Part shown: positions 1-18,895 of the stretch, piece by piece
Position numbering within the stretch: position 1 is the first letter of the stretch
Layout: each line of letters begins with the position of its first letter
Source of the DNA: an uncultured Rhodospirillaceae bacterium
GTDB lineage: Bacteria > Pseudomonadota > Alphaproteobacteria > MPNO01 > UBA2964
Direction of reading: 5' to 3'
Length of the DNA: 43,148 nucleotides
NCBI GenBank assembly: GCA_964477025.1
Contig: CAYZDH010000002.1
Location: forward strand, 1 to 43,148
The notes under the pieces: generated by a model
What the model was told of the DNA's origin: nothing
Seen by the model: the letters and a program-made list of their open reading frames with translations, nothing else
The model's database searches: none
Position numbers and translations under genes: made by a program

Positions 1-170
1 CAAAGGCAGTCGGGGAGCCTCCTCTAATGTTGGCCATTAGTGTTTGGCTTGCTCTTCGTGATGCTGTCGCGAGAGTTGGTGATTATAAGTTCCGACCAGA
101 ACTGAATGCGCCCGCAACACCAGAGGCAATTCTACTCGCCCTCGAAAAAATACAGGAAAATACAGGTTAA
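1..170 (+). CDS. 3' end of a xanthine-dehydrogenase-type molybdopterin-binding subunit (partial; start lies outside the window)
   Basis: Absent from the ORF track because it has no start in the window. The frame starting at nt 3 reads KAVGEPPLMLAISVWLALRDAVARVGDYKFRPELNAPATPEAILLALEKIQENTG, with stop TAA at 168-170. GEPPLML..S....A.RDA and PATPE.I are the conserved C-terminal motifs I recognise from XdhB/XDH Mo subunits. Confidence 0.6.
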   Translation, partial: KAVGEPPLMLAISVWLALRDAVARVGDYKFRPELNAPATPEAILLALEKIQENTG

Positions 171-243: not shown

Positions 244-1260
244 TTGAGTAAAAGTAACAGCCCAGCGATCCGAGTTTTGCGCGAGCATGACCTGAAAAAA
301 TTGCTCGATATTCCGACGGCAATTGAAATCATAGAAAAGACATATCGCAATTATGGCACCGGCGACAGCCATACACTGTCTAATCCAACATCTTTGTATG
401 GAGGCAGTGGGAGGAATGCCGCTGCTCGATACAAAGTAAAAGGCGCAACTCATCTAAGCGGGCAAGTCACCGGGATTAGATTAATTAGCGACCTTCCTGT
501 TAAACAAGGGTTTGATTCTTATCATTTGCTTTGGGTTTATGATGACAGAAGCGCCGCCCCGATTGGGTTGCTGGATGAAACATGGTTGCACCGCTTTAGA
601 ACGGCGTTGACTGGCGTTGTAGCGGCTAAATTTCTTGCTAGGCCTGAAGCCAAAATTGTTGCTCTGTTGGGGGCTGGAGAAATTGCTCGCCAGCTATTCC
701 CTGCGCTATCGGACAATTTTGAACTTGATGAAATTCGGGTCGTTGCACGCCGTTATGAAAGTGCTGAACGATTTTGTAAAATAATGGGAGATCAAATACA
801 GACTGATATGGTTGCTCATAAAAATGCCGACGCAGCGATAAGAGGAGCCGATATTATTATTGCGCTGACATTAGCGGATAAGCCCATTATTAGGTCCGGT
901 ATGTTGTCGCCGGGCAGTTTTCTATGTTCGATGGGAGAAACTGAAGAAGTCGAGATAAGTGTTCTTGCAGAAACGGATAAGTTTGTAGTTGATGAGTTCG
1001 AATATGCGACAGTTCTCGGTGATATGTCGCAATGGCTTAGTAAAGGGCTTATAGAACGGGAAATTTTGCAGGAAAAGGTTGACGCGCATATTGGGCAAAT
1101 TGTTGCAAATATAGTTCCGGGTCGGGAAAATTCGACGGAACGTATATTTGCAATCATTCAAGGAATGGCAATATGCGATCTTGCATTGGCTAACTATGCT
1201 CTAACCAAAGCTGCCGATCATAACGTGGGAGAGCTAATAAATATTTTTGACCAAAGGTAG
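244..1260 (+). CDS. ornithine cyclodeaminase / mu-crystallin family NAD(P)-dependent enzyme
   Basis: 338-aa ORF with a TTG start 8 nt after AGGAG. It has the family-typical HRFRTALTGVVAAKFLA segment followed by the Rossmann motif LLGAGEIARQ, and its length is typical for the OCD/mu-crystallin family. Confidence 0.85.
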   Translation: MSKSNSPAIRVLREHDLKKLLDIPTAIEIIEKTYRNYGTGDSHTLSNPTSLYGGSGRNAAARYKVKGATHLSGQVTGIRLISDLPVKQGFDSYHLLWVYDDRSAAPIGLLDETWLHRFRTALTGVVAAKFLARPEAKIVALLGAGEIARQLFPALSDNFELDEIRVVARRYESAERFCKIMGDQIQTDMVAHKNADAAIRGADIIIALTLADKPIIRSGMLSPGSFLCSMGETEEVEISVLAETDKFVVDEFEYATVLGDMSQWLSKGLIEREILQEKVDAHIGQIVANIVPGRENSTERIFAIIQGMAICDLALANYALTKAADHNVGELINIFDQR

Positions 1261-1267: not shown

Positions 1268-2074
1268 TCACAGGTCTTCAAGCAACCGTCCGTATCCATA
1301 GATATCGTCAGTTAGCTGCAGGGTTCGTAAGCACTGCCAAAACAGAGCCTGATTACTTGTAATCACTGGCTTTCCTAATTTTTTTTCTAAGCTTTTGATA
1401 ACGTTTAGCGATGGAAGGTTGGTGCAGCTAATAAAAACGGCATCTGCTTCTGGGCAGTCGGCCTTTTCAGACAGTCTCTCTACAATTTTTGATGGAACAT
1501 GCCCTATACTGGCGCGCTCTGAAGCAGTAGAACCGAGTTGCAGGCTTTCTACAGAGACGACTTCAAATCCTTTGTCCATCAGCCATTCGGTTTCACGTTT
1601 GTTAACAAAATCAGTGCGAGGTGTTGCAAGAGCGACCCGAGTAGCTCCAACGGCATGGAGGGCTTTAACTACTGCGTCTGATGTCAAAAGAGCCGGGACC
1701 CCTTTGGCGTTATCCTTCATGATTTTTATCGTTTCGCTCGCCGGGGTAAAGTAGGAGCAAGACGTGCAGCCAAACGCTATAACGTCTACATCTGCTGAAC
1801 CAAGGTCGCGGCTCGCCATGGCTACGTTTTTAGCGATTTGTTTATAGAGCGCTGGGGCTTGCGGTCCATCCTGAAATGCACGTGCAACACAAATTCCAAC
1901 ACCATGGGGCGCCATCATGTGAAATTCTGGTTCTATACTTGTGTTAGTAGATGGACATATCAGTCCAATACGACCACGCAACGAATAAGGGCTACTGTTA
2001 AGCAAGCCCTTGATAGGGTTTGCTTTATTATTTTGCTTGTTAGTGGATGAGGTTAAGTCATGCTTATCACTCAT
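1268..2074 (-). CDS. Asp/Glu/hydantoin-racemase-superfamily enzyme, maleate isomerase / arylmalonate decarboxylase-like, with both catalytic-position cysteines
   Basis: I chose the internal ATG (Met25 of the tracked ORF, MSDKHD...) because it overlaps the upstream stop as ATGA (2071-2074). Motifs are IGLICPSTNTSIEPE, FGCTSCSY, ISCTNLPS and the C-terminal GYGRLLEDL, which resembles the AMDase C-terminus as I recall it. Confidence 0.8.
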   Translation of the reverse strand: MSDKHDLTSSTNKQNNKANPIKGLLNSSPYSLRGRIGLICPSTNTSIEPEFHMMAPHGVGICVARAFQDGPQAPALYKQIAKNVAMASRDLGSADVDVIAFGCTSCSYFTPASETIKIMKDNAKGVPALLTSDAVVKALHAVGATRVALATPRTDFVNKRETEWLMDKGFEVVSVESLQLGSTASERASIGHVPSKIVERLSEKADCPEADAVFISCTNLPSLNVIKSLEKKLGKPVITSNQALFWQCLRTLQLTDDIYGYGRLLEDL

Positions 2075-3156
2075 GGGGACTTTGTATCCACGATGCAGGC
2101 GCAAATTCCCCCTCCTGGGGGAGCTGGATGTTCTGTACCACCGCAAACAATAATGCGACCCGTACCAAGTAAAGATCCGACAACTCCACTGGCTGATGCC
2201 CGCATATGCTTGTCTGGGTCTAACTCACTTTGATAGACGGTTGTCCGCTCACCGCGAACGCGTCCATCCGGTGCAATTCCAGCTTTTAGTAGGACGGCCT
2301 GAAGAATTTCTTTACCCACCAACTCCCCAATTTCGTCTAGATTACAACCAGCCTCACAAAATAAAGCCTTGAGAGACCGGGTATCAAGAATATCGTTAAG
2401 TTGGCGAGAGTAAATTCGGGAAGTGCCATTTGCGCCCTGACGGTTACCAAGAACCAAAACTTCACAGTGTTTAACTTCTGTTCCAGAAAAGGTCATTGCC
2501 CGAGTTGCATATTTGTTAAAATCTTTTCCAATATGAATATCTTTTAAATGTTCTATTTCGAGTTCACCAAGGGCTATAGCTACACCTAAAGCCGCCGCCC
2601 CGCGGGATAAACCACTAATTCCAGCTCGTGACATAACTACCGGGTCGCCAGTCAGTGCCGCGTCGTTAGGTGTGAGAATCGGACTTTTCACTAAGACAAG
2701 GCTGGTCTGATCGGGCTTAAGGGCGGCCTCTTTCAATGCTGCGTTTACAGCTCCTGCTACTAATTTAATCTGAACATTCGTAGCTAACTCTTCGGCTGCC
2801 AATATTCTAGTTTGAGCACCCCCCATAGTAAGTTGGTATGGCCCGTTGGTTAAATTTTCTTCGTCTTTGATAGTGGCAAGTACATAAACAGATGGGCTGA
2901 GTATGCCTTCGCACCCGGTCGAAAAGATAATTGTAGAACGGCCAAGAAGTTCGTCGCCTCCAAAATGCCTAATCGAAGTTTGGACTGCCTCGACCGCTAG
3001 TTCGCGGGAGAAGTCATTTATTGTCGCCGTCCCTTCCGTTTTACCAATTAGGGCGAGGCGTTCGATTTTCTCAATAGGCAAGGCCGATAAGATTTGCTCT
3101 AATTTAGAAACATCACTTGGGTGATCAGTTGGGTAGCTGTCAACTATAACGCGCAT
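2071..3156 (-). CDS. ring-opening amidohydrolase of the cyanuric acid hydrolase / barbiturase (AtzD/TrzD) family
   Basis: 361 aa. Motifs are LIGKTEGTATINDFSRE, FSTGCEGILSP, LVKSPILTP, LSRGAAALGVAIALGE, LLKAGIAPDGRVRGERTT and C-terminal VCGGTEHPAPPGGG. These parallel the three Ser-Lys repeat units and the C-terminal loop of AtzD as I recall the sequence. Confidence 0.8.
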   Translation of the reverse strand: MRVIVDSYPTDHPSDVSKLEQILSALPIEKIERLALIGKTEGTATINDFSRELAVEAVQTSIRHFGGDELLGRSTIIFSTGCEGILSPSVYVLATIKDEENLTNGPYQLTMGGAQTRILAAEELATNVQIKLVAGAVNAALKEAALKPDQTSLVLVKSPILTPNDAALTGDPVVMSRAGISGLSRGAAALGVAIALGELEIEHLKDIHIGKDFNKYATRAMTFSGTEVKHCEVLVLGNRQGANGTSRIYSRQLNDILDTRSLKALFCEAGCNLDEIGELVGKEILQAVLLKAGIAPDGRVRGERTTVYQSELDPDKHMRASASGVVGSLLGTGRIIVCGGTEHPAPPGGGICACIVDTKSP

Positions 3157-3404
3157 TTCAAGTCCTTTCAGACTACGAATTTTCAGGTTAATTTAATCAA
3201 GGTTGTAAACCGTATCGAATTCTCCAAATTCAGGAGGAAAAATTATAGTTTGTGGATCGAGTCTATCTTTAGAGGATGAAACTCTGAACTAAATTATATC
3301 AGAGAGTTCTGCTATAAAATTCGGATATAGAAATTAATAAAGATTTTAATATTTTGACGATCAACACTAATAAGGTATCCCAAAAAATTTGATCGCGTTA
3401 AATT

Positions 3405-3430
3405 AAAAAGGGGGCAATTTGCCCCCTTTT
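3405..3430 (-). terminator. rho-independent (bidirectional-looking) terminator after the TAXI-TRAP operon
   Basis: The sequence is aaaaaGGGGGCAattTGCCCCCtttt: a 7-bp GC-rich stem with a 3-nt loop, an A5 run on one side and a T4 run on the other. It lies 17 nt downstream of the minus-strand stop at 3447. Confidence 0.75.
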
Positions 3431-3446: not shown

Positions 3447-4415
3447 CTATTTTAGGCCAAGTTCTTTATATGCGCGTAAGGCACCGGGGTGCATTTTAAT
3501 TCCAGCATTTTTGAAATTAGCCATGCCCGGGGTTGGGTTCCAAGACTTATAGACCGTCTTCATATATTTTCTTGTTGAAGCCTTATAAGTGTATTTAATA
3601 ATTTTATAAATAACATCATCCGGAACACTTGCACGGGCCATGATGGTGCTGGGGACGCCATAAGATAGCGCATCTCCAACGACATTTTTTCCATAGGCAC
3701 TGCCTTTTATCACAAACGGTGCGAAGGCGGGATTTTTGCCCATAACGGCCTTAAGTTCTGACTTTTGTAGTGGAATAAGACGTAGCTTACGGGTTGCAGC
3801 TAAGGCAGTCACAACAGGAACAGGTACCGCTGAGGAAACCGCAAATGCATCAATATTACCATCACGCAAAGCATTACCAGCGGCACTAAAACCAAGGTAC
3901 TGTGCTTTGACATTATTGCGGACGCCAACAGTACGAAGTACGAGATCTGCGTTAGCCGCAGTTCCACTGCCAGCTTTGGCTAAAGAAACCCGTTTGCCTT
4001 TTAAATCTGCAAAGCTAGTGATGTTATGCTTTGCCAGAGTTACCCAATGAATCGGAGAAATTGTTAACGACATAAGTGCGCGAACATTTGTGATCGGTTT
4101 CTTACCTTTGAATTTTCCGGTTGCCGTAACAGCATTATAAACAGCACCAAGATTAGCCAAACCAAGGTCGATTCCGCCCTTTTTTTTGCCCAAAATACGC
4201 ATATTGGTGGTTGATCCAGCAGTCGTTCGTGTTGAGAGGTTAATTCCTTTTACGTCACGAGTAATCGCGGTTGATAGCCCACCGCCCATTAGGAAATAAC
4301 TACCACCTGGCGAACTAGTGCCAATAACAAAATTTTGTGCATTCACAGCGGTACTAAGAAGACCTAGTGCTCCTACACTTACGCAAATTGTATAAAGTTT
4401 TTTATTCATTTTCAT
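3447..4415 (-). CDS. TRAP transporter solute-binding protein, TAXI family
   Basis: 322 aa with the signal peptide MKMNKKLYTICVSVGALGLLSTAVNA and a GTSSPGGSYFLMGGGL motif typical of TAXI receptors. It sits directly downstream of a fused TRAP permease. Confidence 0.85.
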   Translation of the reverse strand: MKMNKKLYTICVSVGALGLLSTAVNAQNFVIGTSSPGGSYFLMGGGLSTAITRDVKGINLSTRTTAGSTTNMRILGKKKGGIDLGLANLGAVYNAVTATGKFKGKKPITNVRALMSLTISPIHWVTLAKHNITSFADLKGKRVSLAKAGSGTAANADLVLRTVGVRNNVKAQYLGFSAAGNALRDGNIDAFAVSSAVPVPVVTALAATRKLRLIPLQKSELKAVMGKNPAFAPFVIKGSAYGKNVVGDALSYGVPSTIMARASVPDDVIYKIIKYTYKASTRKYMKTVYKSWNPTPGMANFKNAGIKMHPGALRAYKELGLK

Positions 4416-4502
4416 ATTTTTTCTCCTTTTTTACGACCTGTTTTGGCCGCAAAATGTTGCCATCCCCCATTAAACAAATTTAATATTTTGAGCTCAGGAG
4501 AT

Positions 4503-6404
4503 TTAAAGCTCAGGTATTTTATTGTTTTTATTACGCTTCTCTTGGCGGATTTGCCAAATCCAGAAACAGACAAAAACTATTAGTGGCAAAACTGCAAAGA
4601 GGCCATGTACTAGAACTAAGCTGATCCCAATACAAATTGACAAAAACCGCATTTTTTTACTTAAATCAGTGTAAAAAAATCCTTCTATTCCAGCCGAAAG
4701 GGAGAGCCCACCAAGGGCCAGTGTCACCACGGTGAGAAAAACATTTATTGCGCCGCCCTCCAGCAGCAGACCCGGCTGGTATACAAACAATACCGGCAAA
4801 TAAAAGATCGCCATAGCCTTTACCATGGCAATATTGCATACCGGCCATAGTCGTTCTTTAGAGATCCCAGCTGCCATGTAGGCTGCCAACGCGACCGGCG
4901 GGGTAACATTCGATGCTTGTCCCCACCACAAAACCAGCAAATGGGCTGCCATAATTGGTATTCCGAGTTGGATGAGTGCTGGCGCTGCCAAGGTTGCCAG
5001 AATGACGTATGCTGGAATTACCGAAAGTCCCATCCCAAGTATGTAGCCAATGATGAAAATAAACATCACCGTGAAGGCGAGGTTACTCTGCGCTAAATCA
5101 ATAATAAGCCCGGTGACCCGTATGCCTGTACCTGGCAAAAGAACGGCGCCCGCGATAATGGAAACTGGCCCTGCAACTGCAATAATTGGCAGGGACTCTT
5201 TGGCCCCTTCTGCCAGAGCTTGAATAATTTTCCGTGGCCCCATTTTTTTATCGGTAAACCAGCTGGCGACTATCACACTGATGATCGCCAACAGACCAAC
5301 CCGACTAAGAGAATAGTCCATATAAACTAAAATGATGACTACAAAGATGGGAAGTAGATAAACCCACCCTTTTTTGAAGGTTCCAATGAAGGGCGGGCAA
5401 TCTGATGGAGGTAATCCCTTTAGGTTGTTTCGTCGTGCATAAAAATGGACCTGGAGATAGACATTAAGAAAATAGAGTAGAGCAGGGATGGTGGCGTAGA
5501 GAACAATTTGGCCATAGGAGAATCCGGTCAAGGCCACCATTATAAAAGCAGACGCCCCCATAACAGGCGGCATGACGGTTCCACCTGTTGAAGCGGCGGC
5601 TTCAATGCCGCCGGCGACCGCTGGCCGGTATCCAGTCCGGATCATCATAGGAATCGTAATATTGCCGGTTATTGCAACATTAGCTGATGCAGAGCCGGAG
5701 ATGCTTGCGGTAATGAAACTGGAACCCACAGCTGCCTTGGCACCGCCTCCCGCTCTTGTCCCAAGAAAGGAAAGGCACATGTCGGTAAAAAATTCGGATG
5801 CGCCCGAGCGGATAAGGAATACTCCAAACACCAAGAACAAAAATAAATTAGATGCTAATACATAGGTAATTGAGCCATAAAGCCCATCGGTCTGAGCATA
5901 AAGCGACGTGGCTATTTCTCTCATATTAAAGCCGCCATGCGTAAATGGCCAAGGGACGCTGGCTCCAAAATAGAGAAAAGCAAGAAATGCTCCAGAGATG
6001 ATTGCCATGGCAAGCCCTAAAGCCCGACGGCCTGCTTCGATTACCCCCAGGATCATTATCCAGCCCATTACCATATCAAAATTGCCGATATCGAAACCTT
6101 CATTTTCAGCAAAAATCAGATAATGTTCGTTAAAACGATAGGTAGCGATTGTTACAGCTACAAAAAAAACAACATCAAAAAGCCTTGCGGGAAGAGAGTT
6201 TGCGAGTGGAAAATAACAAATGGCAAGAGCTACACCAACGAATATAAAAAGGCTGCGATCGAGTGCGGGGCTAAAGGTTCCAAAAGCCCCGACGTACATA
6301 AAATAGAGAGTTGTCGTAAGGCCTATTAAAAAACCAAGCTTGTTCCAATTTCCGCAAAACTGATCTGCCGAAATAACCTGTGCATTAACTGGCTCGTTAG
6401 TCAT
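4503..6404 (-). CDS. TRAP transporter fused small/large permease (TAXI-associated type)
   Basis: 633-aa polytopic membrane protein. Its size and hydrophobic pattern match fused 4TM+12TM TRAP permeases, and it is adjacent to the TAXI binding protein. Confidence 0.85.
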   Translation of the reverse strand: MTNEPVNAQVISADQFCGNWNKLGFLIGLTTTLYFMYVGAFGTFSPALDRSLFIFVGVALAICYFPLANSLPARLFDVVFFVAVTIATYRFNEHYLIFAENEGFDIGNFDMVMGWIMILGVIEAGRRALGLAMAIISGAFLAFLYFGASVPWPFTHGGFNMREIATSLYAQTDGLYGSITYVLASNLFLFLVFGVFLIRSGASEFFTDMCLSFLGTRAGGGAKAAVGSSFITASISGSASANVAITGNITIPMMIRTGYRPAVAGGIEAAASTGGTVMPPVMGASAFIMVALTGFSYGQIVLYATIPALLYFLNVYLQVHFYARRNNLKGLPPSDCPPFIGTFKKGWVYLLPIFVVIILVYMDYSLSRVGLLAIISVIVASWFTDKKMGPRKIIQALAEGAKESLPIIAVAGPVSIIAGAVLLPGTGIRVTGLIIDLAQSNLAFTVMFIFIIGYILGMGLSVIPAYVILATLAAPALIQLGIPIMAAHLLVLWWGQASNVTPPVALAAYMAAGISKERLWPVCNIAMVKAMAIFYLPVLFVYQPGLLLEGGAINVFLTVVTLALGGLSLSAGIEGFFYTDLSKKMRFLSICIGISLVLVHGLFAVLPLIVFVCFWIWQIRQEKRNKNNKIPEL

Positions 6405-6846
6405 TGATTAATAAATCCCACTCTAACAAACGCAGTCAATTAAATACCCTTTCAGACCGCGTTTTAGGAATATGACAACAAATTAACTAAGGATAATAAA
6501 ACCTCAGAGTCAATGTTGGGAAAAAATATTTAAACGCGGAATAGCTCACTAAATGGTCAGGTGCATTCCCGTCCCTCACTCAATTATTTTCAATGACTTA
6601 GTTGCTAGTTGGCGCCTTACCCCCAAAAGATAATAGGATTTTAATGGGAGCCTTGTTACCAAATTGCGTAAGTTGGTCCTAAGCCTCCAGCTATTTACGG
6701 ACGCTATGTCTTTCATGGCATAGACTTACTTTTATTACGGAATTATTCTGGAACTCTTCAAGAAATGAAAAATTATAAAGTAAAAAATCATTACAGAATT
6801 TAACGCCGTATAGAGAAATGAGTAATGTCTATAACAGGAGGAGAAA

Positions 6847-7776
6847 ATGCTTAAGAAAAAATATAGCTGCGTTAAGGTTGATCAGCAAAAAGACGGGATC
6901 ACTTGGGTAATTTTCAATCGTCCCGAAAAACGAAACGCTATGAGCCCAACTTTCCACGCAGAAATGGTTGAAATCCTCGATCTTTTGGAAACCGACCCCG
7001 ACACCAAGCTTGTCATTCTAACGGGTGAAGGTGTCTCTTTCAGCGCTGGACAAGATTTGAAGGTTTTCTTTAGGGAAACTGATGGTCGCCCTGATCTTAA
7101 GGCTGCGGCCTACAATAATAGTAAATGGCGTAACGAAAAACTGTGGATGTACAACAAGCCGACTATTTCCATGGTTAACGGTTTTTGCGTTGGTGGTGCT
7201 TTTACACAGTGCATTTGTTCTGACTTCGCTATTTCTGCAAATAACGCGACCTTTTGCCTTTCGGAAATTAACTGGGGAATTTTACCTGGGGGTATGGTCT
7301 CAAAAATGGTGAGCGATCTATTTAATCAACGAGATGCGATGTTTTATGCCTGTACCGGCCGAACTTTCAATGGCAAAGAAGCTGCTAAAATGGGTATGGT
7401 TAACTACTCAGTGCCTAAGAAAGATCTTCGCAAGGAAACACTTAAACTAGCGAAAGAACTCCTGGAAAAGAATCCGAATGTCCTCCGGGGTACTAAACAC
7501 GCTATTCGTGCTACCCAAGATATGTCTTGGCGAGCCGCGGCGGATTATTTGGCTGCAAAGGGGGCCGAAATTAAAGTTCGTGATGCTGCGCGTGGACATG
7601 ACGCTTACGCTGAGGGGATCCGCCAATTCATCGACGAGAAAGCCTACCGGCCAGTATTTTCTCCTTATGTTGGCGCAGCAGATGGTATGACGACCGAGAA
7701 AGGCGGTAAGCCAAGAGCTTCGGCGGCGCGGAAAAGGAAGGCCTCGACAAAGAAAAGAGTTGGCAAGAAAAAATAG
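6847..7776 (+). CDS. crotonase-superfamily enzyme closest to hydroxycinnamoyl-CoA hydratase-lyase (HCHL/Ech), with a polybasic C-terminal tail
   Basis: GGAGGAG RBS. The segments WVIFNRPEKRNAMSP, TISMVNGFCVGGAF, SEINWGILPGG and LLEKNPNVLRGTKH closely mirror the Pseudomonas HCHL sequence as I remember it. The last ~24 aa are GGKPRASAARKRKASTKKRVGKKK. Confidence 0.8.
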   Translation: MLKKKYSCVKVDQQKDGITWVIFNRPEKRNAMSPTFHAEMVEILDLLETDPDTKLVILTGEGVSFSAGQDLKVFFRETDGRPDLKAAAYNNSKWRNEKLWMYNKPTISMVNGFCVGGAFTQCICSDFAISANNATFCLSEINWGILPGGMVSKMVSDLFNQRDAMFYACTGRTFNGKEAAKMGMVNYSVPKKDLRKETLKLAKELLEKNPNVLRGTKHAIRATQDMSWRAAADYLAAKGAEIKVRDAARGHDAYAEGIRQFIDEKAYRPVFSPYVGAADGMTTEKGGKPRASAARKRKASTKKRVGKKK

Positions 7777-7872
7777 GCGCTTTTTTGGGGCATGCTTTTC
7801 GTTTAGACATTTGGTATTAGATCATCGACCGTTTGATTATTTTCACTTGGATTTATAAAAGCGTGTAGTGTC

Positions 7873-9048
7873 TTGAAGATTTTGATTGCAGGAGCTGGGT
7901 TGGGCGGGCTATCAGCCGCTGCATGCCTTTTGCAAGAGGGGCATGACGTTCAGGTATTTGAACAAGCGCCCAAACTTGGCGAAATTGGTGCTGGCATTCA
8001 GCTTAGTGCGAACGCTATGCATGTCCTCAATCATATCAATATAGGTGAGGCTGTTTCGGCAATTTCTGTGAGACCCGGGGCCTACGTTTTTCGACTTTTT
8101 GATACTGCTGAAATAATTCAGGAGTTTTCTCTGGCAGAAGAGCATCTAGCCCTCCACAAGGCCCCCTACAATCAAATCCATCGTGCGGATTTTCATGACC
8201 TATTAGTTAAGAGGGTCAAGGAACTAAGACCAGATTGTATTCATCTTAATAAAAGGGCAGTCAGTTTCGATGAAACTGAAGATGGCGTCGGCCTTAAATT
8301 TGATGACGGTACAATAATAAGTGGCGATTTAGTAGTAGGTGCAGACGGTGTTAAATCGGCTATTCGTGATCAAATTTGTGGACCGGTTCAGGCTGTATAT
8401 ACGGGCGATGCGGCTTGGCGCGTGACAGTACCAACCTGTGAATTACCACCTAACTTTATTGATGAAGTAATGTCTGTATGGATGGGGCCAGGACGGCACG
8501 CCGTTTGTTATTATATACGCAGTGGTGAAATTCTAAATTTTGTTGGCGCCGTTGAAGCTAAAGATGAGCCGATTGAAAGCTGGACTGCTAAATTCCCATG
8601 GGAGAAATTTAAATCAGACTTTGAAGGTTGGAATGACAAAGTTCAAACTATCATTGACATGGTGGACCATGAAGCCTGCTACCGGTGGTCGATGTATAAG
8701 CGACCGCGCCTTGATTACTGGAGCACTAAAAGAGCCACGATACTTGGCGATGCTGCGCATGCAACAATTCCTTATTTAGCGCAAGGGGCTGCTATGGCGA
8801 TTGAAGATGGGGCTGTCTTAGCCCGTGCGTTGAAACAACATGAGAGCTTATCTCAAGCCTTAGCGCTTTATGAGAATAATCGGATAGATCGAACAGCGCG
8901 TGTAGTTGAGACGTCAGATGCGAATAAAAAGCTATTTCATCTTGATAGCGTTGAGGAGATCCGTCAGGCCTTTGCAGGCAGGGATGAAGGCGAAGATCGA
9001 AACGCTTGGTTATATTCCTATAATCCTTTGACCATAGATTTAGTCTAA
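7873..9048 (+). CDS. FAD-dependent aromatic-ring monooxygenase (salicylate hydroxylase / 6-hydroxynicotinate 3-monooxygenase-like)
   Basis: TTG start. It has the N-terminal GxGxxG motif (ILIAGAGLGGLSAA), the DLVVGADGVKSAIR motif and the LGDAAHATIPYLAQGAAMAIEDG motif typical of group A flavin monooxygenases. Confidence 0.85.
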   Translation: MKILIAGAGLGGLSAAACLLQEGHDVQVFEQAPKLGEIGAGIQLSANAMHVLNHINIGEAVSAISVRPGAYVFRLFDTAEIIQEFSLAEEHLALHKAPYNQIHRADFHDLLVKRVKELRPDCIHLNKRAVSFDETEDGVGLKFDDGTIISGDLVVGADGVKSAIRDQICGPVQAVYTGDAAWRVTVPTCELPPNFIDEVMSVWMGPGRHAVCYYIRSGEILNFVGAVEAKDEPIESWTAKFPWEKFKSDFEGWNDKVQTIIDMVDHEACYRWSMYKRPRLDYWSTKRATILGDAAHATIPYLAQGAAMAIEDGAVLARALKQHESLSQALALYENNRIDRTARVVETSDANKKLFHLDSVEEIRQAFAGRDEGEDRNAWLYSYNPLTIDLV

Positions 9049-9123
9049 CGAATAGAGGCTTCTGAAACCGTGCCGATTGGCTTCAAGCAGATTATACGAC
9101 TGGCCGCAAAACTTTTTAGATTC

Positions 9124-11448
9124 TCAATTCTGGGCTTGCTGAATAGTTCTCCATAGACGTTCCGGTGAAAGCGGCATATCTAGGTGTGTTACCCCAAGGG
9201 GATTTAGTGCGTTGATTACGGCATTCATAACTGCCGCTAGTCCACCAACATTACCAGCTTCGCCAGCCCCTTTAACACCTAAAGGATTTGTCTTTGTTGG
9301 CACGGGGTTGGCTTTGACTTCCATGTAACTTATGTGCTCGGCCCGCGGCATCGCATAGTCCATGAATGAGCCAGTGATAAGCTGGCCATCATCATCATAA
9401 ATAATTTCTTCGAGTAGGGCCTGTCCAACGCCCTGTGCTATACCGCCCTGGATTTGACCTTTTAGTAGCAACGGATTCATAACCGTGCCGACATCATCGA
9501 TGACGTTATAATTTAAAATCTCAACTATGCCTGTGTCCGGGTCGATCTCCACCTCACAGACGTGGCATCCATTCGGATAGTTCATGATTTCTGCTGTATA
9601 AGTTGCCTGCTCGTTTAGGCCGGGCTCCATACCATTAGGTACTTTGGTAGGTGAAATGGCAGCTTTAGCAATTGCCGCAAAATTGATTGTCTTATCTGTG
9701 CCGGCGACAGCGAATGTGCCCTCATGAAATTCGATATCTTCGATGGCCGCTTCAAGTTGGTGCGCGGCGATCTTTTTGGCTTTTTCGATGATCTTGTCAG
9801 TCGCCATTAAAACGGCGGAACCGCCAAGTGTCGCCGACCTAGATCCCCCGGCGCCGTGGCCGAACGCAACCTTGTCGGTATCTCCCCAGATATAGTTGAC
9901 GTCTTCTGGCTTCAATCCAAGCTTATCACAAACAATTTGTTTGTAGACTGTCTCGTGTCCCTGACCCTGTGTGCATGAGCCTGATAGGATTGTCACCGTA
10001 CCTGAACGATCAACACGAAGCTCTGCAGCCTCTATGCCGGGTGCTGCCGCCCTCTCGATTGTGTTGGAAATCCCAATTCCTCGAAGCTTACCAGCTTCTT
10101 TGGCTTGTTTTCGCCTAAGTTCAAAATTTGCGTAGTCTGACATTTCTAAAGCGAGGTCTAAATTTTTTTCGAACTCGCCAGAATCGTATGTAAACGTAAG
10201 ACCTGTTTTAAAGGGCATAGCTTCCGGAGGGATTGTGTTAATCCGTCGCATCTCAATCGGGTCCATTTCCATTTCGTTGGCCGCGAGGTCGATCATCCGC
10301 TCGATTATGTATGCGGCCTCCGGGCGACCAGCACCACGATAAGGGGTCATAGTATTAGTGTTTGATAAAACGCCGGTGACAGCAATATGGATCGCGGGGG
10401 TAGTATAGACACCGGCAATTGTCCCTAAGTTATTAATTGCAGGGTTTGGGGTCGCGCCCCCGATATAGGCGCCCAGGTTGGCTATACTGCTGGCGCGCAT
10501 TGCCAGAAATTTACCATCTTTATCTAAGGCCAGTTCGGCCTCCCAAAAATTATCGCGGCCACCATAATCCGAAAGAAAAGCTTCGCTGCGATCAGCGAGC
10601 CACTTTACAGGTCGGTTCAACTTCCGAGACGCTAGAAGACATAGGGGGTTTTCTGAATAGATCGGAGACTTCATCCCAAAACTACCGCCAACATCCTGCG
10701 CTATTACACGGACCTTACTCTCGGCAACTTTGAGAATTCGTTGAGCTAGCGTAGCGCGATATGGGTGAACGCCTTGCAATGTGGTGTATAGCGTATAAGA
10801 GTCGTCAAATGAGCTGTAGTGTCCGGTGCACCCACGAGGTTCCATTGTGGCGGCCATGACGCGCGTTATATCTAATTTCTGGCTAGTAATATGGTCCGCC
10901 TGTTCAAAGGCGGCATCCACTGCAGCTTTATCGCCAACTTCATGCAGAAAACAAATATTGTCGTGGCACTCGTCGTGGACGGCGGGGGCATCAGCCGCTA
11001 GAGCGGCTCTGCCTGAGGTAACCGATGGCAAGACTTCGTAGTCTATGTGGATTAACTCGCAGGCGTCCTTAGCCTGGTTTTCAGTTTCGGCAACGACCAT
11101 TGCGATGTAATCACCGACCCGCCTGACCCTCTTGTCCGTTACAATTGGTTTCATAGGCGGAACAAACATTGCTGAGCCATCGGGGCGCTTTCGTCCTGAG
11201 GCTACTGGCAAATCACCCCAACCGCTTTCTTTCCAATCTTCACCTGTAAGCACCAACAGAACGCCAGGTGCTGTTTTTGCCCCACTGATGTCGATGCTCT
11301 TCATATGAGCATGGGCAAATGGTGAACGAAGGATTGCGGCGTGCGCAGTATTTGGAAGCTGTGCATCGTCGACATATCGTCCGCCGCCACTTAATAGCCT
11401 TGGATCTTCTGAGCGTGGGATCGGCTGACCTAAAGCGAATTCGCCCAT
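9124..11448 (-). CDS. molybdopterin-binding large subunit of an XDH/CODH-family hydroxylase (form II CoxL-like)
   Basis: 774 aa with the N-terminus GQPIPRSEDPRLLSGGGRYVDD. The active-site loop is TPYRGAGRPE (the form II type, not AYxCSFR), and the C-terminal motif is GVKGAGEAG. No FeS or FAD subunit genes are adjacent. Confidence 0.9.
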   Translation of the reverse strand: MGEFALGQPIPRSEDPRLLSGGGRYVDDAQLPNTAHAAILRSPFAHAHMKSIDISGAKTAPGVLLVLTGEDWKESGWGDLPVASGRKRPDGSAMFVPPMKPIVTDKRVRRVGDYIAMVVAETENQAKDACELIHIDYEVLPSVTSGRAALAADAPAVHDECHDNICFLHEVGDKAAVDAAFEQADHITSQKLDITRVMAATMEPRGCTGHYSSFDDSYTLYTTLQGVHPYRATLAQRILKVAESKVRVIAQDVGGSFGMKSPIYSENPLCLLASRKLNRPVKWLADRSEAFLSDYGGRDNFWEAELALDKDGKFLAMRASSIANLGAYIGGATPNPAINNLGTIAGVYTTPAIHIAVTGVLSNTNTMTPYRGAGRPEAAYIIERMIDLAANEMEMDPIEMRRINTIPPEAMPFKTGLTFTYDSGEFEKNLDLALEMSDYANFELRRKQAKEAGKLRGIGISNTIERAAAPGIEAAELRVDRSGTVTILSGSCTQGQGHETVYKQIVCDKLGLKPEDVNYIWGDTDKVAFGHGAGGSRSATLGGSAVLMATDKIIEKAKKIAAHQLEAAIEDIEFHEGTFAVAGTDKTINFAAIAKAAISPTKVPNGMEPGLNEQATYTAEIMNYPNGCHVCEVEIDPDTGIVEILNYNVIDDVGTVMNPLLLKGQIQGGIAQGVGQALLEEIIYDDDGQLITGSFMDYAMPRAEHISYMEVKANPVPTKTNPLGVKGAGEAGNVGGLAAVMNAVINALNPLGVTHLDMPLSPERLWRTIQQAQN

Positions 11449-11547
11449 ATCATGGGTCTCCTTAAAGAAGTTCTGTTGCGATTTTAATCGAAAATCTTCT
11501 TTTAGGTAGGGTTAGCGTAATGCTTTTTCAAAGAAATTAGATGAATT

Positions 11548-11580
11548 TACCAAAAATAACATTTTCTGTTATTTTTGGTA
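11548..11580. promoter_or_regulatory. 13-bp perfect inverted repeat (candidate operator) in a divergent promoter region
   Basis: TACCAAAAATAAC-attttct-GTTATTTTTGGTA lies between the divergent starts of the Mo-hydroxylase (11448) and the MFS gene (11729). Confidence 0.5.
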
Positions 11581-11728
11581 ATAAGGGACGCGCAGAGAGT
11601 TATTATTATTTTTACTACTAAAACCTTGCTAAGTGGCCAAGGTCTTTAATCTTTTATAGATTATTCTTTGGATTAACTGGGTGTAGTTTTTACACAAGAA
11701 CCAGAGGGTTTTAAAAAGCTAATGCAAA

Positions 11729-13093: not shown

Positions 13094-13266
13094 TACAGCA
13101 AAAACAAATAGAAAAGAATAAACCCTTACTCAATACATTTAGAAAAATCATAGAAGAAAATTTAAGTTCTGTTTACCGTGGTCGCTCTCCATTGCGCGCC
13201 GCACAATTTTGTCCCACAATTCAAATTAGAAAAAATATAATTATTGAACGGAGAGGGAGTGTTTTC

Positions 13267-18242: not shown

Positions 18243-18247
18243 GTATT

Positions 18248-18895
18248 ATGGACGAGTATAAATTGAATGCACCACGTATGAATGCCCTTGTGCCTATGGT
18301 GGTTGAACAGACCAACCGAGGGGAAAGGGCCTATGACATTTACTCTCGACTTCTCAAGGAGAGAATTATTTTTTTGACGGGCCCCGTTGATGATATGGTG
18401 TCTAGTCTGATATGTGCCCAACTTCTTTATTTAGAATCTGAAAACCCATCCAAAGATATTTCTTTCTATATTAACTCTCCGGGAGGGATCGTGACCGCTG
18501 GCCTCGCAATTTATGATACAATGAACTATGTCCGGCCAGATATTTCGACTGTTTGCTTTGGTCAAGCGGCGTCGATGGGCTCACTGCTACTCGCAGCTGG
18601 TTCAAAAGGGAAGCGGTATGGATTACCGCATTCAAGAATAATGATCCACCAACCCTCTGGCGGATTTCAGGGGCAAGCAGCTGATATTGATATTCATGCC
18701 CGCGAAATTTTAAGTCTTAGAGAACGCTTGAACCAGATTTATGCCGATCATACCGAGCAGCCAATTGACGTCATTGAAAAGCGAATGGATCGGGATAGTT
18801 TTTTGTCCCCGGAGGAAGCTAAAGAATTTGGGTTGATTGATGACGTCGTTGATTCCAGAAAAGATTTGGTTTCTGAGGTTTCTGACGATAAATAA
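18248..18895 (+). CDS. clpP: ATP-dependent Clp protease proteolytic subunit
   Basis: Contains [30 protein letters not shown] and the catalytic Ser motif GQAASMGS. The start is uncertain: ATG 18248 was chosen, but GTG 18239 and a later ATG are possible. Confidence 0.93.

What the first reader, a model, noticed from the sequence alone, without database searches (positions are those of the whole stretch)
1268..3156. AtzD/barbiturase-family ring-opening amidohydrolase translationally coupled to a two-cysteine maleate-isomerase/AMDase-like enzyme
Seen in sequence: the 361-aa product of 2071..3156(-) carries the three-repeat signature of the cyanuric acid hydrolase/barbiturase family (LIGKTEGTATINDFSRE; FSTGCEGILSP; LVKSPILTP; LSRGAAALGVAIALGE; LLKAGIAPDGRVRGERTT; C-terminal VCGGTEHPAPPGGG). 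The last motif deviates from the GGxEHQGPxGGGP form I remember for cyanuric acid hydrolases (Q to P, G to A). Its stop overlaps the start of the next gene (ATGA at 2071-2074). That next product belongs to the Asp/Glu/hydantoin racemase superfamily and most resembles maleate isomerase / arylmalonate decarboxylase (IGLICPSTNTSIEPE; FGCTSCSY; ISCTNLPS; GYGRLLEDL end). It keeps both catalytic-position cysteines, which implies racemase/isomerase chemistry; AMDase has Gly at the first position. Established knowledge: only cyanurate and barbiturate are known substrates of the amidohydrolase family, and part of the family is orphan. Racemase plus ring-opening hydrolase is the logic of hydantoin and allantoin utilisation. 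Inference: the coupled pair is flanked by a TAXI-TRAP importer (3447..6404), an OCD-family enzyme (244..1260) and the end of an XDH-type hydroxylase (1..170). This looks like an undescribed module for a chiral cyclic ureide/imide, possibly purine- or pyrimidine-derived, rather than s-triazine degradation. No atzE/F-like or biuret hydrolase genes are present here.
Basis: partly seen in the sequence, partly recalled or inferred. Interest (0 to 1): 0.75.

Follow-up and report, generated by a model that had tools for sequence, protein, structure and literature searches.

The report
Orphan ring-opening hydrolase catabolic gene module

Summary
ORF 2071..3156(-) is a full-length Toblerone-fold ring-opening amidohydrolase (CyAH). 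Its TGA overlaps the ATG (ATGA, 2074-2071) of a two-cysteine AMDase/maleate-isomerase-like protein (RAC, 1268..2074(-)).

CyAH fails the tests for a cyanuric acid hydrolase and for a barbiturase. It falls in a separate clade (56-96% identity) inside a large unstudied superclade. In that superclade the column of the proposed nucleophile Ser (AtzD Ser233) holds Phe.

The pair is part of a five-gene module: fused TRAP permease, TAXI binding protein, CyAH, RAC and an OCD/mu-crystallin enzyme. The module recurs in about a dozen distinct lineages, in two gene orders and with unrelated flanks.

More distant CyAH clades keep CyAH-OCD-TRAP/TAXI but carry an amidase instead of RAC. They often add Mo-hydroxylases, a TRZ/ATZ-type deaminase, or PyrD/PyrK, an OPRT-like protein and a carbamoylase-family protein.

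Best reading: an undescribed catabolic route for an anionic pyrimidine-like cyclic amide. Orotate or dihydroorotate is my leading guess, and it is untested.

No paper describing the module was found.

The parts
3..170 (+). 3' end of an xdhB-type xanthine dehydrogenase Mo subunit gene, co-directional with the OCD gene. This is lineage-specific context, not part of the conserved module.
   Evidence: Frame-3 translation is 91% identical to the last 55 aa of the L011 XdhB. L011 XdhB and XdhA pass NCBIfam equivalogs TIGR02965 (1105 bits, cutoff 849.5) and TIGR02963 (471.7 bits, cutoff 467). No XDH lies next to the module in L014-17, L001, L002, L006, L018 or L037.
244..1260 (+). OCD/mu-crystallin-family NAD(P) enzyme, 338 aa, convergent with CyAH-RAC. 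It is the most constant partner of this CyAH superclade.
   Evidence: PF02423, 120 bits. All NCBIfam equivalogs fall far below cutoff; the best are 'cyclodeaminase' PRK08291 (137 bits, cutoff 408) and EutC (130 bits, cutoff 472). Solved relatives score about 90 bits at most (SbnB, AlaDH, Pyr2C reductase). Homologues form a tight 51-99% identity clade, then drop to 46% or less. An OCD gene lies next to CyAH in all close-clade and nearly all outgroup loci.
1268..2074 (-). RAC: a two-cysteine member of the AMDase/maleate-isomerase branch of the Asp/Glu/hydantoin racemase superfamily, 268 aa. Its start overlaps the CyAH stop.
   Evidence: PF17645, 117.6 bits. EutA model 133 bits (cutoff 318) and AMDase equivalog 117.7 bits (cutoff 225). 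PDB: AMDase 75 bits, maleate isomerase 61 bits. C103 and C217 are invariant in 119 homologues. R153 sits where AMDase has Tyr in its TAY motif, in 95 of 119 homologues. RAC lies immediately downstream of CyAH in all close-clade loci.
2071..3156 (-). CyAH: Toblerone-fold ring-opening (cyclic amide) amidohydrolase, 361 aa, in an orphan clade.
   Evidence: PF09663, 257 bits; TIGR02714, 199.6 bits (cutoff 153.1); CAH equivalog NF052395, 257.9 bits (cutoff 360). AF2 model pLDDT 85, pTM 0.89. Foldseek TM 0.83-0.87 to barbiturase, CAHs and the Frankia enzyme. K39/K157/K291, R51/R185/R304 and S79 are conserved. F223 sits on the nucleophile-Ser column, with S224 next to it. C338 is private to this copy.
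3401..3430 (-). Terminator-like GC hairpin followed by a T-run, just after the TAXI stop. It separates the transporter genes from CyAH-RAC.
   Evidence: Read directly: aaaaGGGGGCaaattGCCCCCtttttaatt. The consensus scan did not list it. About 245 AT-rich bases follow before the CyAH start.
3447..4415 (-). TAXI-family TRAP solute-binding protein, 322 aa.
   Evidence: PF16868, 206 bits; TIGR02122, 200 bits (cutoff 84). It is 75-99% identical in the module copies of other loci. Nearest solved TAXI proteins score about 100 bits.
4503..6404 (-). Fused TRAP (DctQM-type) permease, 633 aa.
   Evidence: TIGR02123, 523 bits (cutoff 321); PF06808, 252 bits. It is 76-98% identical in the module copies of other loci.

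Best explanation
The five genes form a self-contained uptake-and-breakdown module for an anionic, probably six-membered, N-heterocyclic cyclic amide or ureide. That compound is neither cyanuric acid nor barbituric acid.

Proposed course:
1. The TAXI protein and fused TRAP permease import the carboxylate-bearing (or otherwise anionic) ring compound.
2. CyAH hydrolyses one ring amide bond, using the Lys/Arg/Ser active site of the Toblerone fold.
3. RAC, a two-thiol enzyme of the racemase/cis-trans-isomerase type, interconverts stereo- or geometric isomers. It acts either on the ring compound or on the ring-opened product.
4. The OCD-family enzyme uses NAD(P)(H) on the resulting alpha-amino/imino acid. 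It acts as an imine reductase or amino-acid dehydrogenase and yields an ordinary amino or keto acid.

What is shown: family memberships, conservation of the module, and non-membership in the CAH and barbiturase clades.

What is inferred: the order of steps and the substrate.

My leading substrate guess is orotate or dihydroorotate. One chemically coherent version runs as follows. CyAH removes the urea carbonyl as CO2, as CAH does with cyanurate. This gives aminomaleamate/2-iminosuccinamate. RAC isomerises it. The OCD enzyme reduces it to asparagine, as BhcD reduces iminosuccinate. In sister clades an amidase then gives aspartate. I put the orotate version alone at about 0.15-0.2.
For: Family and fold of CyAH.

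Separate clade:
- 56-96% identity within the clade, against about 31-37% to solved CAHs (alignment, Foldseek).
- In the NJ tree the clade is sister to the one holding all solved CAHs.
- It fails the CAH equivalog and the published CAH motif SGGxExQGPxGGGP (PMC9118981; alignment).

Module conservation: TRAP, TAXI, CyAH, RAC and OCD occur together in the window and in L001, L002, L006, L011-13, L014-17, L018 and L036-43.
- Two different gene orders occur.
- Flanks are unrelated: DNA-repair genes in the Tara contigs, mobile elements in L018.
- All three enzyme genes are under purifying selection against L011: 63/25, 43/29 and 50/20 synonymous/non-synonymous codon differences.

Outgroup CyAH clades (35-48% identity) keep CyAH-OCD-TRAP/TAXI. 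They carry an amidase-signature enzyme and never RAC.

Hints about the substrate class:
- All three carbonyl-binding Arg and all three Lys are kept, but a Phe replaces one ring-facing Ser. This fits a ring with two NH positions and one CH position.
- TRAP/TAXI systems take carboxylates (established knowledge).
- The Falsiroseomonas/Roseomonas clade places CyAH with a class-1B PyrD (341 bits, cutoff 269), a PyrK-like protein, an OPRT-like protein (207 bits, cutoff 245), a carbamoylase-family M20 protein and an amidase. L049 repeats the PyrD/PyrK link.
- Other outgroups add TRZ/ATZ-type heterocycle deaminases and Mo-hydroxylases.
- RAC and OCD score best against EutA and EutC/'cyclodeaminase'. 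Those two partner on a tetrahydropyrimidine-4-carboxylate, ectoine.
- RAC relatives at about 53% identity sit beside other cyclic-amide enzymes: a D-Glu-cyclase-like protein and a creatininase-family protein.
- The depositors titled the Frankia family member 5hy0 'orotic acid hydrolase'.
Against: - No biochemical datum exists for any member of this clade.
- The substrate is inferred only from context and residue patterns.
- The PyrD/PyrK/OPRT-like context is in a 43%-identical sister clade, not in this clade.
- The close clade lacks an amidase or carbamoylase, so the pathway end-product is unclear.
- Orotate is achiral, which leaves the two-thiol enzyme with only a cis-trans or tautomerase role.
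- As I recall the 2017 paper on the Frankia enzyme, no substrate was identified. I could not read that paper here.
- The OCD gene is in a separate, convergent transcription unit.
- This window's own CyAH carries three substitutions at clade-invariant positions (F336I, S338C, Q344P). Its activity could therefore be altered.
Confidence: 0.6

Rival explanations
1. It is simply a divergent cyanuric acid (or barbiturate) degradation module. CyAH opens cyanurate or barbiturate, and the neighbours are incidental or handle downstream ureides.
For: CyAH keeps the three Lys and the three Arg, including the two Arg (AtzD R194/R324 equivalents) said to distinguish CAHs from barbiturases. JGI pipelines label relatives 'cyanuric acid amidohydrolase'. 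The fold matches at TM 0.83-0.87.
Against: - The CAH equivalog score is 257.9, against a cutoff of 360.
- The published CAH motif fails at two positions clade-wide and at four in this copy.
- The column of the proposed nucleophile Ser holds Phe.
- The barbiturase signature (Asn/His/Lys/Val/Ser) is absent.
- No biuret hydrolase, allophanate hydrolase or AtzE/F gene lies in the window or in the close-clade loci.
- RAC and OCD are strictly co-inherited with it, which a cyanurate pathway does not need.
Confidence: 0.1
2. RAC is a maleate cis-trans isomerase of a nicotinate/picolinate-type pyridine pathway. That pathway would be served by the nearby Mo-hydroxylase (9124..11448), FAD monooxygenase (7873..9048) and isochorismatase-family hydrolase (13192..13974). 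CyAH would be an unrelated neighbour.
For: RAC has the two-Cys arrangement and the PSTNT..E.E N-terminal motif, and some pipelines call its relatives maleate isomerase. The window holds a 3-hydroxybenzoate-6-monooxygenase/HpxO-like flavoprotein and a Mo large subunit.
Against: - Similarity to solved maleate isomerases is only 61 bits, weaker than to AMDase.
- Arg replaces the Tyr that AMDase carries at this motif position (TAY) in 95 of 119 homologues.
- None of the ORFs of the window that I scanned looks like a 2,5-dihydroxypyridine dioxygenase or a deformylase.
- RAC stays glued to CyAH, OCD and TRAP in loci that lack any of these pyridine-pathway genes.
Confidence: 0.05
3. The module degrades a saturated chiral cyclic amino-acid-like solute, such as an ectoine-type tetrahydropyrimidine carboxylate, 6-oxopipecolate, a hydantoin/dihydropyrimidine carboxylate or a cyclic imide. 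RAC would be a true racemase of the ring compound. CyAH would act as the lactamase or ureidase. OCD would deaminate or cyclodeaminate the released amino acid.
For: - The best family hits of RAC and OCD are EutA and EutC/'cyclodeaminase'.
- RAC relatives pair with creatininase-like and D-Glu-cyclase-like enzymes plus carboxylate transporters. This is the racemase-plus-ring-hydrolase logic of hydantoin and allantoin use (established knowledge).
- OCD-family enzymes typically act on cyclic or linear alpha-amino/imino acids.
Against: - Scores to EutA and EutC are far below their cutoffs, and no eutB or doeABCD genes appear among the neighbours of the module in the window or the close-clade loci.
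- The CyAH active site keeps the planar, three-Arg, CAH-like arrangement. That arrangement suits a flat poly-oxo ring better than a saturated lactam.
- Sister clades replace RAC by an amidase and add deaminases and Mo-hydroxylases typical of aromatic N-heterocycle catabolism.
Confidence: 0.2

Closest known systems
Cyanuric acid hydrolases (AtzD, TrzD, Moorella and Azorhizobium CAH; PDB 4bvq, 5t13, 6bum, 4nq3)
   Same: Same Toblerone fold over the full length (TM 0.83-0.87) and same Pfam/TIGR subfamily. The three Lys, the three Arg and the domain-1 Ser are kept. The domain-3 Ser is kept in the clade, though it is Cys in this window's copy. The Gly-rich C-terminal metal-loop region is recognisable.
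   Different: - Only about 31-37% identity, below the equivalog cutoff.
- The diagnostic motif SGGxExQGPxGGGP is not met.
- Phe occupies the Ser233 (AtzD) / Ser226 (Azorhizobium) / Ser231 (Moorella) column.
- NGC becomes TAT after GKTEG, and SGGTEG becomes STGCEG.
- The partners are OCD, RAC and TAXI-TRAP rather than biuret and allophanate hydrolases.
Barbiturase (Rhodococcus Bar, PDB 5hwe) with ureidomalonase, in oxidative pyrimidine catabolism
   Same: Same fold. The logic of opening a pyrimidine-type trioxo ring, followed in sister clades by an amidase, resembles barbiturase plus ureidomalonase. Mo-hydroxylases nearby recall uracil dehydrogenase.
   Different: The Bar signature Asn195/His321/Lys325/Val345/Ser346 is absent; the window has R185, R299, R304, G339, G340. 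The score to Bar (135 bits) is lower than to CAHs. The window has no amidase, and Bar pathways need neither an OCD nor a RAC enzyme.
Frankia EuI1c class V cyclic amide hydrolase (PDB 5hy0, entry title 'orotic acid hydrolase')
   Same: It is also an orphan of the same fold, with no accepted substrate. Its depositor label points to the same substrate idea reached here independently from gene context.
   Different: It is the most distant solved relative (99 bits, about 26% identity). Class V lacks the Arg195 equivalent, whereas this clade keeps it. I found no paper showing orotate hydrolysis.
Arylmalonate decarboxylase and maleate cis-trans isomerase (NicE/MaiA), for RAC
   Same: Same Pfam family PF17645. 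The fold-level alignment covers the whole protein, and the CTS and SC(T/G) motifs sit at the two active-site positions.
   Different: AMDase has Gly at the first position; RAC has Cys. The equivalog score is 117.7, against a cutoff of 225. Maleate isomerases score only 61 bits. Arg153 replaces the Tyr that AMDase has at this position. The gene context is entirely different.
EutA/EutC of ectoine/hydroxyectoine utilisation
   Same: It is a racemase-superfamily protein paired with an OCD-family protein in a catabolic cluster for a six-membered 1,3-diazine carboxylate taken up by a TRAP system. These are the top NCBIfam hits for both RAC and OCD.
   Different: Scores are well below cutoffs (133 against 318; 130 against 472). 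There is no EutB, DoeA/B/C/D or EnuR in the module or its immediate neighbours. The transporter is TAXI-type rather than DctP-type. A Toblerone hydrolase is present instead of the M24 ectoine hydrolase.
Hydantoin/allantoin utilisation (racemase + cyclic amidohydrolase + carbamoylase)
   Same: It follows the same design principle: a two-thiol racemase-superfamily enzyme sits next to a ring-opening hydrolase, so that all isomers of a cyclic ureide can be used.
   Different: The hydrolase has a different fold (Toblerone, not amidohydrolase TIM barrel). There is no carbamoylase in this clade, and an obligatory OCD-family enzyme is added.

Membership tests
Toblerone-fold cyclic amide hydrolase family (PF09663 / TIGR02714) | Full-length match above the curated cutoffs | tested here: met
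   PF09663, 257.4 bits (cutoff 25), residues 7-357. TIGR02714, 199.6 bits (cutoff 153.1).
Toblerone-fold cyclic amide hydrolase family (PF09663 / TIGR02714) | Three-repeat Toblerone fold | tested here: met
   AF2 model pLDDT 85, pTM 0.89. Foldseek TM 0.83-0.87 to 5hwe, 6bum, 5t13, 4nq3, 4bvq and 5hy0.
Toblerone-fold cyclic amide hydrolase family (PF09663 / TIGR02714) | One Lys and one Arg contributed by each repeat | tested here: met
   K39/K157/K291 and R51/R185/R304 are invariant in the clade.
Toblerone-fold cyclic amide hydrolase family (PF09663 / TIGR02714) | One active-site Ser per repeat. The repeat-2 Ser (AtzD S233 / Azorhizobium S226) is reported as the only absolutely conserved Ser of the family. 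| tested here: not met
   Repeat 1: S79 is present. Repeat 3: Ser in the clade but Cys338 in this copy. Repeat 2: the column holds F223, with S224 at +1, by HMMER, MAFFT and hhalign. A one-residue register shift cannot be excluded without coordinates.
Cyanuric acid hydrolase (AtzD/TrzD type) | NCBIfam equivalog NF052395 score at or above 360 | tested here: not met
   257.9 bits.
Cyanuric acid hydrolase (AtzD/TrzD type) | C-terminal motif S-G-G-x-E-x-Q-G-P-x-G-G-G-P (PMC9118981) | tested here: not met
   The window has C-G-G-T-E-H-P-A-P-P-G-G-G-I. The clade has S-G-G-T-E-H-Q-A-P-P-G-G-G-L.
Cyanuric acid hydrolase (AtzD/TrzD type) | Arg at the AtzD 194/195 and 324/325 equivalents | tested here: met
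   R185 and R304.
Cyanuric acid hydrolase (AtzD/TrzD type) | Placement inside a clade with characterised CAHs | tested here: not met
   NJ tree: the clade with all solved CAHs is sister to the whole P0001-P0100 superclade.
Cyanuric acid hydrolase (AtzD/TrzD type) | Hydrolysis of cyanuric acid to carboxybiuret | not testable with these tools
   Needs an enzyme assay.
Barbiturase | Signature Asn195, His321, Lys325, Val345, Ser/Ala346 (AtzD numbering, PMC3758960) | tested here: not met
   The window has R185, R299, R304, G339, G340. The bona fide barbiturase-like P0109 has SNG...SVDAMH.
Arylmalonate decarboxylase | Gly at the first catalytic position with a single Cys (Cys188), and equivalog NF052327 score at or above 225 | tested here: not met
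   C103 and C217 are both present and invariant. Score 117.7 bits.
Maleate cis-trans isomerase (NicE/MaiA) | Two catalytic Cys | tested here: met
   C103 and C217.
Maleate cis-trans isomerase (NicE/MaiA) | Orthologue-level similarity to characterised enzymes, and a pyridine-ring-cleavage gene context | tested here: not met
   61 bits to 2xec and 59 bits to 4fq7. No nicX/nicD-type genes appear in the window ORFs scanned or in the related loci. R153 replaces the Tyr that AMDase has at this position.
Ectoine utilisation EutA / EutC | Scores above the TIGR02990 (318) and TIGR02992 (471.65) cutoffs, and co-location with eutB/doe genes | tested here: not met
   133.4 and 130.4 bits. No such genes lie next to the module in the window or the close-clade loci.
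Ornithine cyclodeaminase / mu-crystallin family | PF02423 match | tested here: met
   120.5 bits (cutoff 24). No equivalog (OCD, AlaDH, BhcD, LhpI, SbnB) is reached.
TAXI-type TRAP transporter | TAXI binding protein plus fused DctQM permease above subfamily cutoffs | tested here: met
   TIGR02122, 200.4 bits (cutoff 84.35). TIGR02123, 523.2 bits (cutoff 320.65).

The most novel reading that the evidence does not exclude
This superclade of Toblerone-fold enzymes starts a previously unknown hydrolytic route for orotate, or a closely related carboxy-pyrimidine or triazine.

Proposed steps:
1. The ring is imported by a TAXI-TRAP system.
2. CyAH opens it by excising the urea carbon as CO2. The nucleophile would not be the repeat-2 Ser thought to be universal in the family.
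3. The unsaturated imino/enamino acid product is isomerised by a maleate-isomerase-like two-thiol enzyme.
4. An OCD-family imine reductase then reduces it to asparagine or aspartate.

If so, a widespread marine and soil pathway would return pyrimidine-precursor nitrogen and carbon to central metabolism. It would also give the first function for the family's orphan classes.
Probability: 0.15. Interest if true: 0.8.

Novelty: new variant of a known kind. Interest (0 to 1): 0.62.

Why it matters
[quoted passage not shown] Several of its classes remain orphans, by the field's own account.

The work here defines a large further superclade, about a hundred 90%-identity clusters in one search. It has a fixed set of partners: an OCD enzyme, a TAXI-TRAP system, and either a RAC or an amidase. 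That turns 'orphan hydrolase' into a short list of testable substrates and a complete candidate pathway.

Phe sits at the column of the 'only absolutely conserved' catalytic Ser. This bears on the unresolved question of which Ser-Lys dyad is the nucleophile in this fold (AtzD Ser85 or Ser233).

The module occurs in Tara Oceans and Fram Strait assemblies. It could therefore matter for turnover of dissolved organic nitrogen in the sea.

It also warns against automatic 'cyanuric acid amidohydrolase' labels, which are used in surveys of s-triazine degradation potential.

Tried and rejected
1. Plain CAH or barbiturase. Rejected on equivalog score, motif, signature residues and tree.

2. NicE-type maleate isomerase tied to the window's own Mo-hydroxylase, flavin monooxygenase and isochorismatase genes. 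Rejected because RAC travels with CyAH, OCD and TRAP in loci lacking those genes, and is only remotely like solved isomerases.

3. The isochorismatase gene at 13192..13974 as a hidden biuret hydrolase. NCBIfam gave only a weak RutB-like hit.

4. The Ser-to-Cys and Gln-to-Pro changes as a clade-defining novelty. Rejected: they are private to this sequence. They sit in a locally hyper-divergent patch that also carries extra synonymous changes, so a sequencing error is unlikely.

5. Literature searches for the module, for PF09663/TIGR02714, for orotate catabolism and for 'orotic acid hydrolase' found nothing relevant. Three key papers could not be opened: Seffernick 2012, Peat 2017, and Seffernick and Wackett 2016.

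6. The consensus promoter/terminator scan was uninformative: 15 promoter-like sites against 12.5 expected.

7. The AF2 model could not settle whether F223 or S224 faces the active site, because coordinates are not returned. The strand registers hint at F223.

8. XDH as part of the module. It is adjacent only in the window, L011 and L013.

Full report
**1. Observation**

ORF 2071..3156(-) encodes 361 aa. The longest ORF of the next gene runs 1268..2146(-), but an in-frame ATG at 2074 gives a 268-aa product. On the minus strand the bases 2074-2071 read ATGA, so the hydrolase stop and the next start overlap.

The same 4-nt overlap is annotated in the 93%-identical relative L011. L018 has an 11-nt overlap. 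Other relatives have gaps of about 20-95 nt. Coupling is therefore frequent but not universal, whereas adjacency and order are universal.

**2. The hydrolase (CyAH)**

It matches Pfam PF09663 end to end (257 bits). It passes the NCBIfam subfamily model for ring-opening amidohydrolases (199.6 bits, cutoff 153.1). It fails the cyanuric acid amidohydrolase equivalog (257.9 bits, cutoff 360).

Its best solved relatives are:
- cyanuric acid hydrolases at about 150-159 bits;
- barbiturase at 135 bits;
- the Frankia orphan at 99 bits.

An AlphaFold2 model built on 18 clade sequences has pLDDT 85 and pTM 0.89. It superposes on all solved family members with TM 0.83-0.87.

Residues kept, from an alignment of 100 homologues, the pairwise HMMER alignments and a profile-profile alignment:
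- the three lysines K39, K157 and K291;
- the three carbonyl-binding arginines R51, R185 and R304;
- the repeat-1 serine S79.

Features that do not fit a cyanuric acid hydrolase:
- The published diagnostic motif S-G-G-x-E-x-Q-G-P-x-G-G-G-P (PMC9118981) reads SGGTEHQAPPGGGL in the clade and CGGTEHPAPPGGGI in this window.
- The barbiturase signature Asn/His/Lys/Val/Ser (PMC3758960) is absent.
- The repeat-2 serine is AtzD Ser233, Azorhizobium Ser226 and Moorella Ser231. The literature describes it as the only absolutely conserved serine and the likely nucleophile. All three aligners place Phe (F223) in this column, with a Ser at +1, in every one of about 90 superclade sequences.
- Either the strand register is shifted by one residue or another serine is the nucleophile. 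Peat et al. proposed the Ser85 equivalent, here S79. I could not decide this without coordinates.

**3. Phylogenetic position**

A search of 5.8 billion proteins gave a tight clade at 56-93% identity (P0001-P0040). Identity then steps down to 46% and to about 36-44%.

In a neighbour-joining tree that includes four solved enzymes, the window protein sits inside the P0001-P0040 clade. That clade lies inside a large superclade (P0045-P0100). The superclade is sister to the clade holding all solved cyanuric acid hydrolases. I rooted the tree on barbiturase.

The signatures do not match any of the six classes described in 2013. I could not read the later surveys.

**4. Private substitutions in this copy**

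The window's own gene differs from all 40 clade representatives at three invariant positions: F336I, S338C and Q344P. A 96%-identical metagenomic relative (L036) and an 82% one (L037) both have the consensus.

The gene as a whole is under purifying selection: 63 synonymous against 25 non-synonymous codon differences to L011. Codons 326-344 hold 9 of the 37 codons that differ from L036, and six of those nine are synonymous.

This looks like a real, locally hyper-divergent patch rather than a sequencing error. It is not a family trait, and it may alter activity in this organism.

**5. The partner (RAC)**

It belongs to Pfam Amdase/Asp_Glu_race. It reaches no NCBIfam equivalog: EutA 133 bits (cutoff 318) and AMDase 118 bits (cutoff 225). 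It is only remotely similar to solved AMDase (75 bits) and maleate isomerases (61 bits).

Both catalytic-position cysteines (C103, C217) are invariant in 119 homologues. Arg153 stands where AMDase has Tyr in its TAY motif, in 95 of the 119. It is therefore neither an AMDase nor a NicE orthologue.

Relatives at about 53% identity lie next to other cyclic-amide enzymes and carboxylate transporters:
- a D-glutamate-cyclase-like protein plus TctC in Pigmentiphaga;
- a creatininase-family protein plus TctC in Humitalea.

This supports a general role beside ring-opening hydrolases.

**6. The module**

I took the window's proteins as queries against 58 fetched loci from genomes and metagenomes. The same five genes occur together in every close-clade locus long enough to show them: fused TRAP permease, TAXI protein, CyAH, RAC and an OCD-family enzyme. 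The loci are L001, L002, L006, L011-13, L014-17, L018 and L036-43.

Two arrangements exist:
- TRAP-TAXI-CyAH-RAC with OCD convergent (window, L011-12, L014-17, L036-38);
- CyAH-RAC, OCD convergent, then TRAP-TAXI (L001, L002, L006, L018, L041, L042).

The flanks are unrelated: DNA-repair genes in the Tara Oceans contigs, transposases in L018. Retention through rearrangement, together with unrelated flanks, marks a self-contained functional unit.

The OCD protein forms a clade (51-99% identity, then 46% or less) that parallels the CyAH clade. It is remote from every characterised family member.

In the window, a GC hairpin with a T-run follows the TAXI stop. The transporter genes and CyAH-RAC are therefore probably separate transcripts. 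OCD is co-directional with a genuine xdhAB pair, but only in the window, L011 and L013.

**7. Sister clades**

CyAH relatives at 35-48% identity are followed directly by an OCD gene, then TRAP-TAXI, and usually an amidase-signature enzyme. They never have RAC (L003/19, L024, L026, L048, L050-52, L056-58). RAC and the amidase are therefore mutually exclusive third enzymes.

Many of these loci add a stand-alone Mo-hydroxylase large subunit (L024/25, L028-30, L048, L049, L051) or a TRZ/ATZ-type heterocycle deaminase.

In six Falsiroseomonas/Roseomonas-type genomes and MAGs the CyAH gene is preceded by an orotate-phosphoribosyltransferase-like gene (207 bits, cutoff 245) and a carbamoylase-family M20 hydrolase. 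Alongside them are an OCD gene, a class-1B dihydroorotate dehydrogenase (341 bits, cutoff 269), a PyrK-like subunit and an amidase. L049 shows PyrD/PyrK again.

**8. What it most likely does**

Shown: the family memberships, the conserved five-gene unit, and exclusion from the two characterised activities.

Inferred: the unit imports an anionic N-heterocyclic cyclic amide. CyAH opens the ring. RAC interconverts isomers of the substrate or product. The OCD enzyme carries out an NAD(P)-dependent step on the resulting alpha-amino/imino acid.

Clues to the substrate class:
- The three Arg are retained, which suits three oxo or anionic substituents on a flat six-membered ring.
- A Phe replaces one ring-facing Ser, which suits one CH instead of NH in the ring. 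Barbiturase similarly has a hydrophobic Val facing C5.
- The transporter is of a carboxylate type.
- The sister-clade contexts are pyrimidine-flavoured.
- The best hits of RAC and OCD are EutA and EutC, which are thought to act on a tetrahydropyrimidine-4-carboxylate.

Orotate or dihydroorotate fits all of these. Independently, the depositors titled the Frankia structure 5hy0 'orotic acid hydrolase'. I found no paper showing that activity. As I recall the publication on that structure, no substrate was identified; this rests on my own memory.

A chemically coherent scheme is:
1. CAH-type excision of C2 as CO2, giving aminomaleamate/2-iminosuccinamate.
2. Isomerisation by RAC.
3. BhcD-type reduction by OCD to asparagine.
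4. In sister clades, conversion to aspartate by the amidase.

This is speculation, and I give it about 0.15-0.2. I give the general statement about 0.6.

**9. Rivals**

- A divergent cyanurate/barbiturate pathway (0.1).
- A saturated chiral cyclic amino-acid-like solute of the ectoine, lactam or hydantoin type (0.2).
- A nicotinate-type pathway with RAC as maleate isomerase (0.05).

Evidence and refuting results for each are in the structured fields.

**10. Novelty and verdict**

All five protein families are known, and so is the racemase-plus-ring-hydrolase design. New here are:
- a large, uncharacterised Toblerone-fold superclade with an altered repeat-2 catalytic motif;
- its obligatory pairing with an OCD-family enzyme and a TAXI-TRAP system;
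- in this clade, a two-thiol isomerase-like enzyme.

Nine literature searches found no description of it (with failing on syntax).

I rate it a new variant of a known kind, of moderate to high interest. It gives the family's orphans a testable pathway and bears on the debate about the nucleophile. The function remains unproven.

Noticed in passing
window 2071..3156(-), codons 326-344 (about window 2125..2181): This copy of CyAH carries F336I, S338C and Q344P at positions invariant in 40 clade representatives. The patch holds 9 of the 37 codons that differ from a 96%-identical relative, six of them synonymous. It may be a small recombination tract or local adaptation, and the enzyme's activity may be altered.
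   Followed up: partly
window 2071..3156(-), residues F223/S224 (window 2485..2490); all of P0001-P0100: The column of the 'absolutely conserved' repeat-2 nucleophile Ser of the CAH/barbiturase family holds Phe in the whole superclade, with Ser at +1. This holds for HMMER, MAFFT and hhalign. It bears on the unresolved question of which Ser-Lys dyad is catalytic.
   Followed up: partly
L004, L005, L007, L008, L009, L020, L021 (about 5100..12250 in each); L049 3330..11318: In six Falsiroseomonas/Roseomonas-type genomes and MAGs a 43%-identical CyAH sits in a conserved cluster. The cluster holds a class-1B dihydroorotate dehydrogenase, a PyrK-like subunit, an OCD-like enzyme, a carbamoylase-family M20 hydrolase, an OPRT-like protein and an amidase. 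This looks like an orotate/dihydroorotate-related catabolic cluster. A soil contig (L049) repeats the PyrD/PyrK link.
   Followed up: partly
PDB entry 5hy0 (Foldseek output): The Frankia class V family member is titled 'orotic acid hydrolase' in the PDB, while its molecule name is only 'ring-opening amidohydrolase'. No paper with that activity was found.
   Followed up: partly
L031-L034 (about 5938..8801) and L035 (5248..8801): RAC relatives at about 53% identity lie in small clusters with TctC binding proteins and another cyclic-amide enzyme: a D-glutamate-cyclase-like PF14336 protein in Pigmentiphaga and a creatininase-family protein in Humitalea. This suggests a wider family of 'ring hydrolase + two-thiol isomerase' pairs.
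   Followed up: no
window 9124..11448(-); L024 7577..9844, L028 15067..17358, L029 1773..4061: A Mo-hydroxylase large subunit has no FAD or Fe-S subunit gene beside it. The window's copy is 37-45% identical to the similarly solitary Mo subunits next to CyAH genes in sister-clade loci. It lies about 2.7 kb from the module's permease gene, beyond an HCHL-like hydratase (6847..7776) and a 3-hydroxybenzoate-6-monooxygenase/HpxO-like flavoprotein (7873..9048).
   Followed up: no
window 3..170(+) and 244..1260(+); L011 6221..11010: In this sub-lineage only, the OCD gene lies directly downstream of, and co-directional with, a bona fide xdhA-xdhB pair. That is the place where xdhC usually sits.
   Followed up: partly
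L028 8924..11026; L026 4504..5565 and 10001..10996; L029 1318..1749, 10001..11062, 18479..19510: Sister-clade loci often carry two or three paralogous CyAH genes within 10-20 kb, sometimes in tandem.
   Followed up: no
window 23965..32229: A second, unrelated catabolic-looking block holds a UbiD-family decarboxylase, an acyl-CoA ligase, an enolase-superfamily (MR/MLE) enzyme, a glyoxalase-fold protein and a TctC-like/TctA-TctB-fused tripartite tricarboxylate transporter.
   Followed up: no
window 16818..22859 and 37777..42041: The tig-clpP-clpX-lon genes and the start of a nuo (complex I) operon are present. The window is therefore chromosomal rather than a mobile island.
   Followed up: no
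P0043: A 359-aa database protein joins an acyl-CoA-binding (PF00887) part to the C-terminal half of a 91%-identical CyAH. It is probably a chimeric or mis-assembled metagenomic ORF.
   Followed up: no
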